From Malacoraja senta (lineage: Eukaryota), in the NCBI GenBank assembly GCA_038087875.1, contig CM075990.1, positions 16,680,001 to 16,744,000 of the forward strand: a stretch of DNA of 64,000 nt, given 5' to 3'. Below the pieces are notes generated by a model. The model worked only from the letters and a program-made list of their open reading frames with translations. It searched no databases and was not told the DNA's origin. This document shows positions 8,030-61,699 of this stretch, one piece after another. A program made the translations under genes and the position numbers. How positions within the stretch are numbered: the stretch's first letter is position 1; every line of letters begins with the position of its first letter.

Positions 8030-8548
8030 GTGATAGTAGAATTAAGCCATTATCCATTACGTCTACTCCATTCAATCATGGCTGTTCTACCTCTCCCTCC
8101 TAACCCCATTCTCCTGCCTTCTCCCCATAACCTCTGACACCAGTGCTAATCAAGAATTTATCTATCCCTGCCTTAAAAATATCCACTGACTTGGCCTCCA
8201 CAGCCTTCTGTGACAAATAATTCCACAGATTCACCACCAAAGAAATTTCTCCTCATCTTCTTCCTAAAAGAACGTCTTTTAATTCTGAGGCTATGACCTC
8301 GACTCCTCGACTCTCCCACTAGTGGAGACATCCTCTCCACATCCAGTCTATCCAAGCCTTTCACTATTCTGTACTTTTCAATGAGGTCCCCCCTCATTCT
8401 TCTAAACTCCAGCGAGCACAGGCCCAGTGTCGACAAACGCTCATCATAGGTTAACCTACTCATTCCTGGGGTCATTCTTATAAACCTCATCTGGACCCTC
8501 TCCAGAGCCAGCACATCCTTCCTCAAAAATAGTGGCCAAAACTGCACA
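8030..8548 (-). mobile_element. CR1 LINE 3' fragment (RT C-terminus and 3' UTR)
   Basis: ORF 8173-8547: VQFW..LRKDVLALERVQ.RF...LEFRRMRGDLIE.Y.IVKGLDR...SRGHSLRIK. Confidence 0.9.
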
Positions 8549-29569: not shown

Positions 29570-31630
29570 TATCATAAGAGTACAATGCTGCTCCGTCAGC
29601 GGTGGAGCAGCGGCAGAGGACACCACGGCCACGCTTGGCCAGGCCGACCCTGCAACGCCGCCAGGACAACAGACCTACATGGTCAGGTCAAGATGCCTGC
29701 ACTTACAACAACTGGGACTTGAATATGGCACCAAATTGGCGACTCTGTATACTGTCTCTGTGTACTACTGCTAAACACTTGTACTGTATCTGAGATGCCT
29801 ATTTCAGATGTATCTAAGTGTTTATGCATTGTGATACTTGTACTGAACTGTATACAAAGATGAATTTCACTGTACCTCAGTGCATGCAGCAAATAAAGTA
29901 CCATACCATTCCAATAGATTATGAAAGATGAGAAAAGATATTTCATAATGTCAGTACAAGCTTCACTTAACTGTAAGCACAGCGATGGATTGGTGTTAAT
30001 CCTCTAGCACTAGTATTGGAGCCATCAAACGTTCTACCATTCAAAGATGTCCCGTTGATCTGCATTCCAACACCATATAATCCTAAGCCATTAACTCTAT
30101 TGCCTGAGTTGCGTTTCTCAGTTTCCCTTTAAGATTCAGAACATGAACTCAGGCACCCATGTCAGATGGGAGATAATTGACCTGAAACATAAACACTGTG
30201 TTTTCTTACAGATGCTACCTGATCTACTGAGGATTTTCATCCATTTTAATTATCATTTCAGACATTCCTGGGGCTAAATGTCCTTTTCCTTGAATCTAAG
30301 TATTTACCACAGAAGAAATAGAAAGATCTCATGGTTAAGATATCAATGGTATTGCAGGAATTGCAAAGGCTAATGTCATTGTCTGAATCTGAAGATGGTT
30401 CTCGGCCTGAAGCATCATCTCCAGAGCCTCAATCTGAAGAAGGGTTTCGGCCCGAAACGTTGCTTATTTCCTTCGCTCCATAGATGCTGCCTCACCCGCT
30501 GAGTTTCTCCAGCATTTTTGTGTATCTCCAGAGATGCTCCCTGACCCGCTGAGTTACTCCAGCATTTTATGTCTGTCTTCGGTACAACATACTCCCTGAG
30601 TTGACCCTCCATGTTGGACTTTTTGGTGACATGATTTTGATCAACATTACTGCAGGTTGTTGACTTTTTTTGTGATTCGCCTCTGTCTTAAATAAGTACC
30701 TAATCATGTTTAGCTGGGTACCTTAAATAAAATATATAAAGACGGACCATGTTCTTTGTGCTTGTTGTCCTTTCCTTCTTAAGTGCCTGTGCGTCCACCA
30801 TTCTACAATTCTCACCTCCACACTTTGGCCTGGGTTGAATATAGTTGAGCCTACAGTGGGGTTGAACCTTCTTGAATATAGTTGGACCACTAATCACCCA
30901 TTCAATGCCCTCCTGACCTGTCAATGGCAGCACAGCGTTTGTGAAGTCAGGAGTTTGTGTCACTCATTAACACCACGGAGAACATCAACTAAAGTCAGAG
31001 AGTCACACAGCACGGAGACAGGCCCTTTGGCCCAACACTAGTCCCACCTGCCAGCGGTTTGGCCCATATCCCTCGAAAATATTCTTGTCCAACTCTGCTG
31101 AATAAAGCTTGATTGACGGTCCCTAGCTTTGTAACAAAGTCACCATTGATTCCAAAATCTATGCGTGGACAAATAGTTCCACAGGATTAATAAGTTTGTA
31201 AGTTATCTGAGCAGAATTAGGCCATTCAGCCTATCAGGTCTACTCTGCCATTCAATCCTGGCTGATCCATCTTTCCCTCTCAACCCCATTCTCATTTCTT
31301 CTCCCCATAACCCCTGACCACCGTGTTAAAATTAGCCACCAGCATTGGACAGGAGTTGGAGCAATGGCTGATATTGACAACACTGCCCCATCTCCCCCCC
31401 CAGCCCCTTGCCCCTGTTGTGCACCTCAGCAGGCTCATTGGGCCCATGTGGAATAGCACGTGAGATTGGAACTCTAGCGACTTCAATATCCTCTTTCCAC
31501 CTGCAACCGGGGACAATGTCTGAAGAAGGGTCTCGAACCAAAACGTCACCCATTCCTTCTCTCCAGAGGTTCTGCCTATCCCGCTGAGTTACTCCAGCAA
31601 TTTGTGTCTATCTTCGGTGTAAACCAGCAT

Positions 31631-31684
31631 GGGGTGGAAGATTGCAACCTTCACGTGGTCCACCCTGTTTCGACGAATGCAATC
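31631..31684 (+). ncRNA. Minimal HDV-like (CPEB3-type core) self-cleaving ribozyme
   Basis: P1 GGGGTGG/CCACCCT (G1-U wobble), P2 GATTGCA/TGCAATC, P3 ACC/GGT, L3 TTCACGT, GT, short TTCGA loop in place of P4, J4/2 CGAA with putative catalytic C at 31674. Confidence 0.85.
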
Positions 31685-31770
31685 AACCCGGCGTGCACAA
31701 TCAAATAAGATCAAATAGAACAAGTTGTCCTACAACTTTAGGATGTGCACGCCATACGCAAGAAGGAGAA
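31631..31770 (+). mobile_element. Short non-autonomous retroelement with 5' HDV-like ribozyme and Vingi-like 3' tail
   Basis: 12-bp TSD GTAAACCAGCAT (31619-31630, 31771-31782) inside a Penelope-like pLTR; 3' end CTACAACTTTAGGATGTGCACGCCATACGCAAGAAG matches 34147-34182. Confidence 0.9.
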
Positions 31771-31887
31771 GTAAACCAGCATCTGCAGTTCCTTCCTACA
31801 CAGGTTCTACCCGGCTGTGCATCATCCCGGCCCCATTAGCTGTAGCAAAGTATCTAGAAATGTCACATCAAGAGAGAGTTAAATACA

Positions 31888-32497: not shown

Positions 32498-32932
32498 TGA
32501 CCGCGTGGGTTTTCTCCGAGATCTCCGGTTTCCTCCCACATTCCAAAGACGTACAGGACTGAAGGTGGTGCAGGAAAGAACTGCAGATGCTGGTCTAAAT
32601 CGAAGGTAGACACAAAATGCTGGAGTAACTCAGCGGGACAGGCAGCATCTCTGGAGAGAAGGAATGGGTGACGTTTCGGGTCGAGACGTTTCGGGTCGGG
32701 TCTGAAGAAGGGTCTCGATCCGAAACGTCACCCATTCCTTCACTCCAGAGATGCTGCCTGTCCCGCTGAGTTACTCCAGTATTTTGTGTCTACCAGGTTT
32801 GTAGGTTAATTGGCTTGGTATAAATATAAATTGTCCCTAGTGTGTACAGGATAGTGTTAGTGTGCGGGGATCGCTGGTCAGTGCAGACTTGGTTGGCCGA
32901 AGGGCCTGTTTCCGCGCTGTATCACTAGACTA
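32498..32932. mobile_element. V-SINE split by an inverted Penelope-like pLTR pair (about 32571-32794)
   Basis: SINE stops at GACGTACAGG and resumes CAGGTTTGTAGG; the sequence in between is a palindrome of pLTR sequence. Confidence 0.8.
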
Positions 32933-33568: not shown

Positions 33569-34187
33569 GCAACGAGTTGACACTGTCCTTAACTCCGCAA
33601 TGCGGGTCATCACAGGGAGGCTTAAGTCAACACCTTTGCAGTGGCTCCCTGTCCTCTCTCATATCACCCGTCCCAGCATACGCAGAAGGGAGAGGATGTT
33701 GAAAGATTGGTGCACCACCGGGGCCAACTCTGACCTTCCCATCCATGCTGACTCGAACAATCTGCCCAACATGCGCCTGAAGCCCTGCAAACCCTTCTGG
33801 CCTTCCGTTAAATCCCTGGAAGACTTTGACTCCGAGTCTGAGTGGCGCAGAGCCTGGAAAGATGCCAACACCAACAACGGAGAGGTCATCACAGACCCCA
33901 CAGTGAAACCACCGGGTTTTGACCTCCACCGCAAGCAATGGCTAACCCTGAACAGAATCCGCACCCTCCATGCAAGAACTGCACGTGGGGGATGACAGAC
34001 AGCCCTGCTTGCGACTGCGGACATCCAGACTAGACCAGACCATCCCACACATCGTGAATGACCGCCCACTGAGGCTTTTCCCCGGGGGCATCAAAGCCAT
34101 CCACCCAGTAACTGATGCTGTCCTGGCCTGGATGTCCGCCCTTGATCTACAACTTTAGGCTGTGCACGCCATACGCAAGAAGAGGAG
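33569..34187 (+). mobile_element. 5'-truncated Vingi/Ingi-clade (I group) LINE: C-terminal ORF with CCHC-like knuckle and 3' tail
   Basis: VDTVLNSAMRVITGRLKSTPLQWLPVLSHI.RPSIRR...PPGFDLHRKQWLTLNRIRT; after a frameshift WG..DSPACDCGHPD.TIPHIV..(R)PLRLFPGG; short (GAA/GAG) tail; flanking GCATT repeat (33564-33568, 34188-34192). Confidence 0.75.
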
Positions 34188-36618: not shown

Positions 36619-36818
36619 NNNNNNNNNNNNNNNNNNNNNNNNNNNNNNNNNNNNNNNNNNNNNNNNNNNNNNNNNNNNNNNNNNNNNNNNNNNNNNNNNN
36701 NNNNNNNNNNNNNNNNNNNNNNNNNNNNNNNNNNNNNNNNNNNNNNNNNNNNNNNNNNNNNNNNNNNNNNNNNNNNNNNNNNNNNNNNNNNNNNNNNNNN
36801 NNNNNNNNNNNNNNNNNN
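36619..36818. other. Assembly gap (200 N)
   Basis: Run of exactly 200 N. Confidence 1.
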
Positions 36819-41349: not shown

Positions 41350-42828
<1,479 letters not shown>

Positions 42829-60715: not shown

Positions 60716-61699
60716 CTGATCTGAAAGCAGTATGATAACTGATGCAGCGTTCCAAGACTGCGTGCGGTTTGTGAGTCGACTGTTATCCATACGAAGATGA
60801 ATCTTTTCACACGTGGACAGGAAGTGTTGAGGGGGTCAAACCACATGCGTTTCAAGTACAATATTGTGGCACCACAGAGCTGTCTCACACGCTAGCCTTG
60901 CGTGTGACTACAGGAGCAAAGATCAGATCTGCCCCACATGTTAAACCAGTGTCCAGGAAGCATGTCGGCTGGCAATTTCCTCTCGGGCCCCATCTAAAGC
61001 CAGATACGGACTTCCTCACAGCTCACTCCACACACGGATTACCCGCCCAGTGAGACAGACACAGAATGCTGGAGTAACTCAGCGGGACAGGCAGTGTCTC
61101 TGGAGGGAAGGAATGGGTGACGTTTCGGGTCGAGTTCTGAAGAAGCGCTTCCACTAGAAACATAAGCTTTGCTACTCTTCCCACAGATGCTGCCTGATCA
61201 CCTGAGTTTCCAGCCTTTTCTTTTTTTTGTCTGTGTGCAAAAAATGGATGAGTAGCCGGGAACAATATTTAAAGAGCAGAGCGAAGCAGAACTTCCCTGA
61301 TAAAGGAGGGATGTGGCCACAGCTGTTGTTTTGGATACTAGTTCTAGGGGGGTTACTGGTACAACAGCAGCGTCAAGGAAAGAGCGTTCACGTCAATCGC
61401 GGCCCTGTTTCCACCACCACGCACAAGAAGCAACAAGACAGACACCATTGTATGCAGATGCCGAGAAGTGCGTTCAGCTCTGGCTGAACAACTTGTAATC
61501 TTGTGTGCGGACTCGTTAAGAAGATCTTCAAGTAACCCCAACATTCCCTCTCTCTCCATCCCTCCCCCTCCCAGCTTCTCGTTTTCACCCAACAAACAGC
61601 TAATAACGGCCTGTTTCTTTTATCATCGTTACTTTCATCCATTATTCTTTATCTCTCTACATCATTGTCTATATTTCTTGTTCCCCTTTTCCCTGACTA

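What the first reader, a model, noticed from the sequence alone, without database searches (positions are those of the whole stretch)
31619..31782. 140-bp mini-retroposon that starts exactly at an intact minimal HDV-like ribozyme
Seen: a 140-bp insert (31631-31770) bounded by a perfect 12-bp TSD (GTAAACCAGCAT) splits a Penelope-like pLTR. Its first 54 nt fit the HDV nested double pseudoknot: P1 GGGGUGG (31631-37)/CCACCCU (31660-66) with a G1-U wobble, J1/2 AA, P2 GAUUGCA (31640-46)/UGCAAUC (31678-84), P3 ACC/GGU, L3 UUCACGU, then GU, a 5-nt UUCGA loop replacing P4, and J4/2 CGAA (putative catalytic C31674). There is no tRNA A/B-box head and no ORF. Known: HDV-like ribozymes cleave just 5' of G1 and head R2 and L1Tc/ingi-clade retrotransposons. 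As I recall it, the mammalian CPEB3 ribozyme has the same L3 UUCACGU, the same CU-GU junction after P1 and the same CGAA. Inference: the element's 5' boundary coincides with the predicted cleavage site, so it probably cuts itself out of read-through transcripts and needs no promoter of its own. It would be a P4-less, ribozyme-headed non-autonomous element in a vertebrate genome. I do not know whether this family has been described.
Basis: partly seen in the sequence, partly recalled or inferred. Interest (0 to 1): 0.92.

Follow-up and report, generated by a model that had tools for sequence, protein, structure and literature searches.

The report
Ribozyme-headed mini-retroposon cut down from a LINE
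The 140-bp insert is one of thousands of copies of a tiny mobile element, an internally deleted version of a LINE retrotransposon, and both start exactly at a 54-base HDV-like self-cleaving ribozyme fold whose closest relatives match the model of the "mammal-only" CPEB3 ribozyme.

Summary
Window 31631-31770 is a 140-bp insert between perfect 12-bp target-site duplications. Its first 54 nt fit the HDV double pseudoknot without P4.

It belongs to a family whose ribozyme core occurs at 8,344 places in this 1.94-Gb genome. RAG1 similarity marks the genome as elasmobranch. Copies have precise 5' ends, 10-14-bp duplications and variable (GAA)n tails.

The LINE starts with the same 54-nt ribozyme, and its last ~35 nt equal the mini-element's tail. 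The mini-element is therefore an internal-deletion derivative, like R2 SIDEs or NARTc.

The fold alone is weak evidence: Rfam scores are 16 bits and the chance rate is about 0.1 per window. Comparison makes it strong. A second P4-less family differs on both sides at 10 of 17 pairs yet keeps 98.5% pairing. Sister LINE families carry P4-bearing versions scoring up to 64 bits on Rfam's mammalian CPEB3 ribozyme model (threshold 35).

Self-cleavage itself is untested; the RNA reads showed no 5'-end pile-up.

Verdict: a new variant of a known kind, with a notable lead on the origin of the CPEB3 ribozyme.

The parts
31619..31630 (+). left target-site duplication GTAAACCAGCAT
   Evidence: D13; present once in uninterrupted copies of the host repeat (I1/I6; table 7)
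31631..31684 (+). 54-nt P4-less HDV-like (CPEB3-type) ribozyme fold. P1 31631-37/31660-66; J1/2 31638-39; P2 31640-46/31678-84; P3 31647-49/31657-59; L3 31650-56; J1/4 plus loop 31667-73; J4/2 CGAA 31674-77 (putative catalytic C at 31674)
   Evidence: helices. RF00094 16.4 bits and RF02682 15.9 bits, both aligned end to end with P4 deleted; covariation; own model, 78.1 bits.
31685..31730 (+). spacer related to the LINE 5' UTR; holds the 5' arm GGCGTGCACA (31690-31699) of a 10-bp stem
   Evidence: stem in MFE and centroid folds; the LINE 5' UTR has the related GACGTGCACA stretch
31731..31770 (+). LINE 3' end: last 13 nt of the LINE ORF with its stop codon (TACAACTTTAG), the 3' UTR including the stem arm TGTGCACGCC (31744-31753), and a purine-rich AAGAAGGAGAA tail
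   Evidence: identical tail at window 34150-34185 and in L091; tail length varies between copies
31771..31782 (+). right target-site duplication GTAAACCAGCAT
31298..31618 (+). host repeat interrupted by the insert; it continues at 31783 to about 31805. Contains CTGAAGA...AAAAC GTC, a hammerhead-like motif by my recollection, at about 31521-31550
   Evidence: D1, D2, I1, I6; depth table; Penelope identity not verified
33575..34185 (+). 5'-truncated, decayed 3' part of the partner RTE-like LINE. The ORF C-terminus ends ...LDLQL*, followed by the same 3' UTR and tail as the mini-element
   Evidence: 523 first-look candidates genome-wide. RT and endonuclease homology.
61369..61424 (+). degenerate copy of the head of a second P4-less ribozyme family ('mini2' type)
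   Evidence: 22.8 bits, E about 1e-5 with model R1; sequence; no Rfam hit

Best explanation
Window 31631-31770 is a copy of a non-autonomous retroposon formed by internal deletion of an RTE-like LINE. It keeps the LINE's first nucleotides (a 54-nt P4-less HDV-like ribozyme plus part of the 5' UTR). It also keeps the LINE's last ~35 nt (the end of the ORF and a 24-nt 3' UTR) plus a (GAA)n-type tail.

Proposed cycle:
1. The element has no promoter of its own and is transcribed as part of a longer host or neighbouring-repeat transcript.
2. The ribozyme folds and cleaves immediately 5' of G1, giving an RNA that begins at the element's first base.
3. The LINE's endonuclease/reverse transcriptase recognises the shared 3' end, nicks a target and copies the RNA by target-primed reverse transcription up to its 5' end. 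This produces 10-14-bp target-site duplications.

Shown here: the anatomy, the family, the target-site duplications, the shared ends with the LINE, the fold's covariation, and the homology of the ribozyme type.

Inferred: catalytic activity, cleavage in vivo, read-through transcription, and mobilisation in trans by the LINE protein.
For: FAMILY
- The 140-bp query gave 192 first-look candidates, of which 40 were scored, all at 94-100% identity. 37 of 40 begin at query base 1 and 28 of 40 cover 1-140.
- The 20-nt ribozyme core, allowing 1 mismatch, occurs at 8,344 places (4,190 + 4,154), against 0 for the control pattern.
- 27 of 30 best copies begin GGGGTGG at the junction.
- In a sample chosen without regard to the 5' end (L031-L060), 18 of 30 do so. 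Most of the rest differ by one base or one position.
- Duplications of 10 nt or more with at most 1 mismatch abut the junction in 23 of 30 copies. Exact duplications of 8 nt or more occur in 14 of 30, against 0 of 868 mismatched flank pairings.
- Tails vary in (GAA)n length. Extreme 5'-truncated copies with duplications exist (L079/L080).

PARTNER LINE
- Window 33575-34185 and L091 end with the same 35 nt, including the ORF stop.
- There are 523 first-look candidates of this LINE 3' part.
- Its RT region is 76% identical to P0001, a 1,019-aa protein with endonuclease and RT domains from a 3,344-nt contig.
- Near-full copy L092 has the 54-nt head, then about 54 nt of 5' UTR, then ATG and the endonuclease N-terminus.
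- Of 13 LINE 5' regions (11 distinct), L097 and L098 start at G1 with unrelated upstream DNA.
- The shorter mini-element subfamily B equals LINE nt 1 to about 92 joined to the last ~27 nt.

RIBOZYME
- RF00094 and RF02682 both align end to end at 31631-31684, with only P4 deleted.
- In an ungapped alignment with a second P4-less family, 98.5% of cells are paired. 10 of 17 pairs are changed on both sides (P1 3, P2 5, P3 2). 0 of 500 shuffles reach this, and slid controls give 33-50% pairing.
- Sister LINE families carry P4-bearing versions scoring 40.7-64.2 bits on RF00622, whose gathering score is 35.
- 39 of the 51 genome matches listed (59 candidates scored) are over the cut-off.
- P2 differs between families yet stays complementary, in alignments that do not model P2.
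- 42 of 75 heads of nominal length keep all pairs, G1.U and the CNRA junction.
Against: - No experiment shows cleavage.
- The window's own ribozyme scores far below every Rfam threshold (16.4 of 50; 15.9 of 44) and is not reported by RF00622 at E up to 10.
- A generic descriptor match arises by chance about 0.1 times per 64-kb window.
- P1.1 can form only one Watson-Crick pair (C of L3 with G31667).
- The covariation test rests on two independent lineages only.
- Only 2 of 11 distinct LINE 5' regions start cleanly at G1. Five distinct regions are truncated within the first 8-11 nt, and several are joined to inverted LINE segments. Precise 5' ends are therefore not universal.
- The catalytic C lies in a CpG and reads T in about 7-14% of laid RNA reads (31 of 228 and 10 of 148, table 3).
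- No promoter test was done, so an internal promoter starting at G1 is not excluded.
Confidence: 0.78

Rival explanations
1. The element's 5' end is set by transcription initiation at G1 from an internal promoter. The conserved fold would then serve another purpose, such as binding the LINE protein or promoting translation of the LINE ORF, and not self-cleavage.
For: The first 77 nt of L1Tc/NARTc act as both a promoter and an HDV-like ribozyme (abstract of PMC3383444 in the listing; passage). HDV-like ribozymes of R2 and L1Tc are proposed to act like an IRES (review passages). In the sister LINE the ATG lies about 30 nt behind the ribozyme. No read-start pile-up was seen at 31631 (table 6).
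Against: There is no tRNA, 5S, 7SL or snRNA similarity. The mini-element has no ORF to translate, yet it keeps the complete fold in thousands of copies. The conserved features are those of the catalytic core: G1.U, L3 and the C of J4/2. RTE and baggins elements are described as promoter-less (review passage).
Confidence: 0.12
2. The head descends from a true ribozyme but is catalytically dead since it lost P4. On this view the mini-element spread for other reasons, and its 5' end reflects only full-length copying of whatever RNA was available.
For: P4 is absent and P1.1 is weak. Rfam scores are low. Many LINE copies have ragged 5' ends.
Against: Two separate P4-less families keep all three helices through 10 compensatory pair changes, which implies selection on the fold after P4 was lost. 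5' ends pile up at G1 with unrelated upstream DNA. P4-less 'minimal' HDV-like ribozymes are a recognised group (passage of PMC10879173). That some of them are active in vitro is my recollection of Riccitelli et al. 2014, which I did not read here.
Confidence: 0.08
3. The HDV-like fold is a chance resemblance in an ordinary short retroposon.
For: A generic descriptor match is expected about 0.1 times per window. Rfam E-values are 0.24-2.3.
Against: The match begins at the exact base defined independently by the target-site duplication. There is covariation with a second family. Sister LINE heads score up to 64 bits on RF00622, while 14 control genomes score none.
Confidence: 0.02

Closest known systems
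R2 SIDEs (short internally deleted elements of R2, Drosophila; PMC3414825, abstract seen in the listing)
   Same: Non-autonomous derivatives made by internal deletion. They keep the 5' self-cleaving HDV-like ribozyme and the 3' end that the element's protein needs.
   Different: R2 is rDNA-specific and belongs to another clade. Its ribozyme lies in the first ~184 nt (review passage). Here insertions are dispersed, the partner is RTE-like, and the ribozyme is 54 nt without P4.
NARTc / L1Tc of Trypanosoma cruzi (PMC3185411, PMC3383444; abstracts, passage)
   Same: A truncated non-autonomous element shares the HDV-like ribozyme at the first nucleotides with its LINE.
   Different: It belongs to the ingi/L1Tc clade in a protist. 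Its 77-nt head is also a promoter. No promoter function was tested here.
Ribozyme-terminated RTE and baggins LINEs (Ruminski et al. 2011, not held; known to me only through passages of PMC6765202 and PMC3774820)
   Same: LINEs of the RTE type with an HDV-like ribozyme cleaving at the 5' junction. They are described as lacking promoters and relying on co-transcription.
   Different: I could not read which hosts and ribozyme forms that paper covers. Here the host is an elasmobranch, the ribozyme lacks P4, and a deletion derivative has outgrown the LINE (8,344 cores against 13 LINE 5' junctions).
Mammalian CPEB3 ribozyme (Rfam RF00622)
   Same: Same L3 (UUCACGU) in the same register, and the same CCCUGU and CGAAU junctions (consensus printed; primer). 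Sister LINE ribozymes of this genome pass the family's gathering score.
   Different: CPEB3 is a single-copy intronic ribozyme with P4. It is reported as not found outside mammals (PMC8233481 passage). The window's own ribozyme lacks P4, has different P1, P2 and P3 sequences, and does not reach the RF00622 threshold.
Minimal (P4-less) HDV-like ribozymes and theta ribozymes (PMC10879173, passages)
   Same: A nested double pseudoknot without the P4 domain.
   Different: Those were found in metagenomes and are almost all in phages, next to tRNAs. This one heads a vertebrate retrotransposon and has a CPEB3-type core.

Membership tests
HDV-like ribozyme | P1 of 7 bp whose first pair is G1.U, with cleavage 5' of G1 | tested here: met
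   31631-37 pairs with 31660-66, 7 of 7 including G.U. The cleavage itself was not tested.
HDV-like ribozyme | P2 pseudoknot closing the fold | tested here: met
   31640-46 pairs with 31678-84, 7 of 7. 5 of 7 pairs are changed on both sides against the second family. Further P2 variants stay complementary.
HDV-like ribozyme | P3 of 3 bp capped by a 7-8-nt L3 | tested here: met
   ACC/GGT with TTCACGT; 2 of 3 pairs covary.
HDV-like ribozyme | P1.1 (two pairs between L3 and J1/4) | tested here: inconclusive
   Only C31652-G31667 can form a Watson-Crick pair; the next position is U opposite U. That CPEB3 is similar in this respect is my recollection.
HDV-like ribozyme | catalytic C in J4/2 (C-N-R-A) | tested here: met
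   CGAA at 31674-77. CTAA in the LINE and subfamily B, CCAA in other families. The C-N-R-A rule itself is recalled.
HDV-like ribozyme | P4 helix | tested here: not met
   Replaced by 5 nt. P4 is absent from the recognised 'minimal' subgroup, so this does not exclude the fold.
HDV-like ribozyme | Rfam gathering score of an HDV-type model | tested here: not met
   RF00094 16.4 of 50; RF02682 15.9 of 44; RF00622 not reported at E up to 10.
HDV-like ribozyme | Mg2+-dependent self-scission | not testable with these tools
   Needs a bench assay.
Rfam RF00622 (CPEB3 ribozyme), applied to sister LINE heads of this genome | score at or above 35 bits | tested here: met
   5 of 10 LINE 5' regions score 40.7-64.2 bits. 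39 of the 51 genome matches listed (59 scored) are over the cut-off. 10 of 10 re-examined loci score 37.0-59.7 bits.
Internally deleted non-autonomous LINE derivative (SIDE/NARTc-like) | 5' end and 3' end shared with an autonomous LINE, with no ORF between | tested here: met
   5': L092 and L097. 3': window 34150-34185 and L091. The element is 140 bp without an ORF.
Internally deleted non-autonomous LINE derivative (SIDE/NARTc-like) | hallmarks of target-primed reverse transcription | tested here: met
   Target-site duplications, variable tails, 5'-truncated copies.
Internally deleted non-autonomous LINE derivative (SIDE/NARTc-like) | mobilised in trans by the LINE protein | not testable with these tools
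   Inferred from the shared tail.
Classical SINE (pol III head from tRNA, 7SL or 5S) | tRNA-, 7SL- or 5S-derived 5' head | tested here: not met
   No tRNA; no such Rfam match.
RTE clade (for the partner LINE) | single ORF of about 1,000 aa with an AP endonuclease and RT, about 3.3 kb, very short UTRs | tested here: met
   P0001: 1,019 aa, PF03372 + PF14529 + PF00078, on a 3,344-nt contig. 5' UTR about 108 nt, 3' UTR about 24 nt. That these traits mark RTE is recalled.
RTE clade (for the partner LINE) | placement within RTE in an RT phylogeny | not tested
   No reference set of LINE clades was available.

The most novel reading that the evidence does not exclude
The mammalian CPEB3 ribozyme is a domesticated 5' ribozyme of an RTE-like LINE lineage that still lives in elasmobranch genomes.

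The window's 54-nt head is a P4-less offshoot of that lineage. Its sister LINE families carry P4-bearing versions. In the alignment printed, I count 33 of 41 bases identical to the CPEB3 consensus from G1 to the start of P4. The P1 differences are compensatory.

These sequences would supply the outgroups that PMC8233481 says are lacking. They would also show that a vertebrate ribozyme can shed P4 and still drive the spread of thousands of copies.
Probability: 0.45. Interest if true: 0.85.

Novelty: new variant of a known kind. Interest (0 to 1): 0.72.

Why it matters
Ribozyme-terminated LINEs and their short derivatives are known in insects and trypanosomes. This case extends them in three ways.

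1. It is a vertebrate example whose ribozyme core occurs at over 8,000 places.
2. It is a natural P4-less HDV-type ribozyme in a eukaryotic chromosome. The minimal forms were reported from metagenomes and almost only in phages.
3. The ribozyme type is that of CPEB3. [quoted passage not shown] In this elasmobranch genome, 39 of the 51 matches listed (59 candidates scored) pass the Rfam CPEB3 threshold, and the ones examined sit at LINE 5' ends.

If these are homologues, the origin of the CPEB3 ribozyme becomes directly testable. The natural series from full P4, to short P4, to no P4 gives ready-made variants for studying what P4 contributes.

Tried and rejected
- RNA evidence. No listed holder of the stretch is on record as RNA. 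The one raw RNA run (X24, poly(A), a related organism) covers the element at depths of about 130-243 and 60-163 in the two directions. It shows no place where many molecules begin or end (table 6). The flanking repeat's much higher depth raises that table's threshold, and poly(A) selection would miss a 140-nt RNA, so this neither supports nor contradicts cleavage.
- Ribozyme head followed by foreign sequence. This search gave 331 matches, and the 30 loci examined were all indel variants of the same mini-element. It missed the LINE because the LINE's 5' UTR resembles subfamily B.
- P4-bearing version of this exact head. 74 matches, all indel variants.
- Tail with foreign upstream sequence. 132 matches, and the 30 loci examined gave subfamily B, copies carrying a TIR-flanked insertion, and truncated copies. 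L089 was the first glimpse of the LINE.
- MAFFT alignment of 9 ribozymes of unequal P4 length mis-aligned the 3' halves (A1), so it was not used. The alignment from my own model also mis-placed the P4-bearing ones (A3), so it was not used for pair counts either.
- Hammerhead check of the host repeat found no Rfam hit.
- Earlier findings of this scan: none.
- Literature. The searches found no description of this family or of CPEB3-type ribozymes in LINEs of fishes. Searches (motif UUCACGU; badly set term count) were uninformative. Ruminski 2011 and Webb 2009 are not held. Repbase and Dfam cannot be searched here, so a prior library entry is possible.
Full report
OBSERVATION

The sequence is as described. 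GTAAACCAGCAT stands at 31619-31630 and at 31771-31782, around a 140-bp insert (D13). The insert lies inside a repeated element. A neighbouring minus-strand copy of that element (32568-32692) runs through the site with the 12-mer present once (I1 and I6). All four sequencing runs laid on the stretch show the uninterrupted form: loose ends after 31630 continue CTGCAGTTCC... (table 7).

My own descriptor asks for a 7-bp P1 starting G.U, a 3-bp P3, a 7-8-nt L3, a C-N-R-A junction and a P2 of at least 6 bp. It finds this one site on both strands of the window. In 200 simulated windows the same descriptor finds 20 sites with P2 of 7 bp or more and 49 with 6 bp or more. The fold alone is therefore only mildly unusual.

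Rfam gives no hit at gathering score in the whole window. On short stretches the HDV ribozyme model scores 16.4 bits (threshold 50). The F. prausnitzii HDV model scores 15.9 bits (threshold 44). Both align end to end on 31631-31684 and differ essentially by deletion of P4.

A LARGE RETROPOSON FAMILY

The window's genome is held: 1.94 Gb in 6,182 contigs.
- The 140-bp query gave 192 first-look candidates, of which 40 were scored, all at 94-100% identity. 37 of 40 start at query base 1 and 28 of 40 span 1-140.
- The 20-nt core of the ribozyme, with at most one mismatch, occurs at 8,344 places against 0 for the reversed control.
- Among the 30 best copies, 27 begin GGGGTGG directly after unrelated flank.
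- In 30 copies selected by a pattern that ignores the 5' end, 18 do so. Most others differ by one base or one position, and one lacks about 6 nt.
- Target-site duplications of 10 nt or more (at most one mismatch) abut the 5' junction in 23 of 30 copies. Exact ones of 8 nt or more occur in 14 of 30, against 0 of 868 wrong flank pairings.
- The 3' end is AAGAAG followed by a variable number of GAA-like units.
- Extremely 5'-truncated copies flanked by duplications exist (L079/L080).

These are the marks of target-primed reverse transcription. There is no tRNA-like head.

THE PARTNER LINE

The tail recurs in the window at 34164-34182. There it ends a coding-looking stretch (33575-34185) whose frame closes ...LDLQL with the stop codon inside CAACTTTAGG, followed by a 24-nt 3' UTR and the tail. 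The mini-element's last ~35 nt are this ORF end plus 3' UTR.
- The LINE 3' part has 523 first-look candidates, of which 40 were scored: the window's own copy at 100% and the other 39 at 89-92%.
- Copy L091 shows RT motifs and the same end.
- Its RT region is 76% identical to P0001, a 1,019-aa protein with AP-endonuclease and RT domains from a 3,344-nt contig. I read this architecture as RTE-like from recollection; no phylogeny was made.
- A near-full copy (L092) carries the same 54-nt head (one G short). It is followed by about 54 nt of 5' UTR, whose first ~38 nt equal the body of mini-element subfamily B. Then come the ATG and an N-terminus aligning to P0001.
- A pattern at the 5' UTR/ATG junction finds 13 places, 11 of them distinct. 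L097 and L098 start at G1. L092 and L106 start nearly so. Five distinct regions are truncated within the first 8-11 nt. Two distinct regions lack the head and are joined to inverted LINE sequence.

The mini-element is therefore an internal-deletion derivative of a LINE that is itself ribozyme-terminated. Subfamily B is LINE nt 1 to about 92 joined to the last ~27 nt. The window copy belongs to a longer subfamily A.

IS THE FOLD REAL?

Comparison answers what the single sequence cannot.
- A second family of 54-nt P4-less heads aligns to the window type without a gap, anchored on the unpaired segments (A2). On that alignment 98.5% of cells pair. 10 of 17 pairs are changed on both sides (P1 3, P2 5, P3 2). 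None of 500 shuffles reaches these values, and sliding the partners gives 33-50% pairing and 0-2 such pairs. The caveat is that this compares only two independent lineages.
- I fetched the 5' regions of ten other RTE-like LINE copies (38-49% protein identity to P0001). Five match Rfam's 'Mammalian CPEB3 ribozyme' model above its gathering score of 35: 64.2, 63.8, 57.1, 52.6 and 40.7 bits, best E = 2.9e-16. Two others (L114 and L116) fit my descriptor with different P1, P2 and P3.
- Genome-wide, 39 of the 51 matches listed (59 candidates scored) pass the cut-off, and 14 control genomes give none.
- Ten further loci re-examined all pass, at 37.0-59.7 bits. They span full P4, short P4 and no P4.
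- In these alignments, which do not model P2, the two P2 strands change together. Examples are GGUAGAA/UUCUACC, GAAGGA/UCCUUC, GCAGGA/UCCUGC and GGAAAGA/UCUUUCC, against GAUUGCA/UGCAAUC here.
- The upstream 11 nt differ between copies, consistent with the element starting at G1. The ATG follows about 30 nt behind the ribozyme.

A mouse Cpeb3 ribozyme primer in PMC10919898 puts TTCACGT at nt 20-26, as here.

RNA

Only one raw RNA run was offered (poly(A), related organism). It covers the element in both directions and shows no pile of read starts. This is uninformative for a small RNA without a poly(A) tail amid a far more abundant flanking repeat.

HOST

RAG1 of this genome is 97% identical to a skate's. 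It is 87-90% identical to RAG1 of other rays and sharks, and about 80% to mammals'. The genome is therefore an elasmobranch, not a mammal.

MECHANISM

Shown here:
- the anatomy and the copy family;
- the signatures of target-primed reverse transcription;
- the ends shared with the LINE;
- selection on the fold.

Inferred:
- the element is co-transcribed from outside;
- the ribozyme cuts 5' of G1;
- the LINE protein uses the shared 3' end in trans.

A 10-bp complementarity between 5' UTR and 3' UTR is kept in both the LINE and the mini-element (GGCGTGCACA at 31690-99 with TGTGCACGCC at 31744-53; 9 of 10 pairs in the LINE form). It is unexplained.

COMPARISON AND NOVELTY

Known relatives:
- HDV-like ribozymes at the 5' junction of R2, R4, L1Tc and RTE elements (passages).
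- Short derivatives that keep them: R2 SIDEs and NARTc.
- P4-less HDV-like ribozymes, reported from metagenomes and phages.

What I did not find in print:
- a vertebrate family of this kind;
- a P4-less form in a eukaryotic chromosome;
- CPEB3-type ribozymes outside mammals.

These negatives rest on the searches. [quoted passage not shown] Ruminski 2011 and Webb 2009 could not be read, and Repbase and Dfam cannot be searched, so priority is uncertain.

I rate the element a new variant of a known kind. The CPEB3 link is the boldest reading the evidence allows.

Noticed in passing
L109:326-409, L113:57-140(-), L115:326-409, L110:86-169(-), L111:69-152(-); 39 genome places: 5' UTRs of sister RTE-like LINE families match Rfam's 'Mammalian CPEB3 ribozyme' model above its gathering score (up to 64.2 bits) in this elasmobranch genome. 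The start codon follows about 30 nt behind.
   Followed up: partly
L117-L122; window 61369-61424: A second family of 54-nt P4-less CPEB3-type heads (P2 GGAAAGA/TCTTTCC, junction CCAA) scores 37-44 bits on RF00622. A decayed copy of this head lies in the window.
   Followed up: partly
L072, L081, L090: Some mini-element copies carry an insertion of about 230-300 bp bounded by inverted repeats, at the TTA of ACTTTAGG. It occurs in either orientation and in two sequence types, which looks like repeated hits by a TTA-targeting DNA transposon or MITE.
   Followed up: no
L093/L094, L096, L098, L102/L105, L103/L104, L106: Many LINE 5' regions are joined to inverted pieces of the LINE's own 3' coding part, or have their first ~220 nt inverted. 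This resembles 5' inversions made during reverse transcription.
   Followed up: no
L110:177-284(-), L111:109-216(-): Partial tandem repeats of ribozyme positions about 4-33 (P1 3' part to P3/L3) sit just upstream of the complete ribozyme in two LINE copies.
   Followed up: no
window 31690-31699 with 31744-31753; LINE 5' UTR with 3' UTR: A 10-bp complementarity between the 5' UTR and the 3' UTR is kept in the LINE (9 of 10 pairs) and in the mini-element (10 of 10). Its function is unknown.
   Followed up: no
window 31634-31768, run X24 (table 2): RNA read pairs over the element are unequal between the two directions (about 230 versus 150 in the 5' half, about 210 versus 93 in the 3' half). The flanking repeat is symmetrical. 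The library's strandedness is unknown.
   Followed up: no
window 32605-32794: Two copies of the host repeat form an 88-nt inverted dimer, 94% complementary with a 14-nt gap. This produced spurious Rfam matches to long-hairpin families.
   Followed up: no
window 41350-42826; 36619-36818: A 1.5-kb (GT)n microsatellite and a 200-N assembly gap.
   Followed up: no
runs X1, X18, X21 (table 8): Contigs from three differently labelled organisms hold the mini-element at roughly 90-96% likeness, so the family is shared by related species.
   Followed up: no
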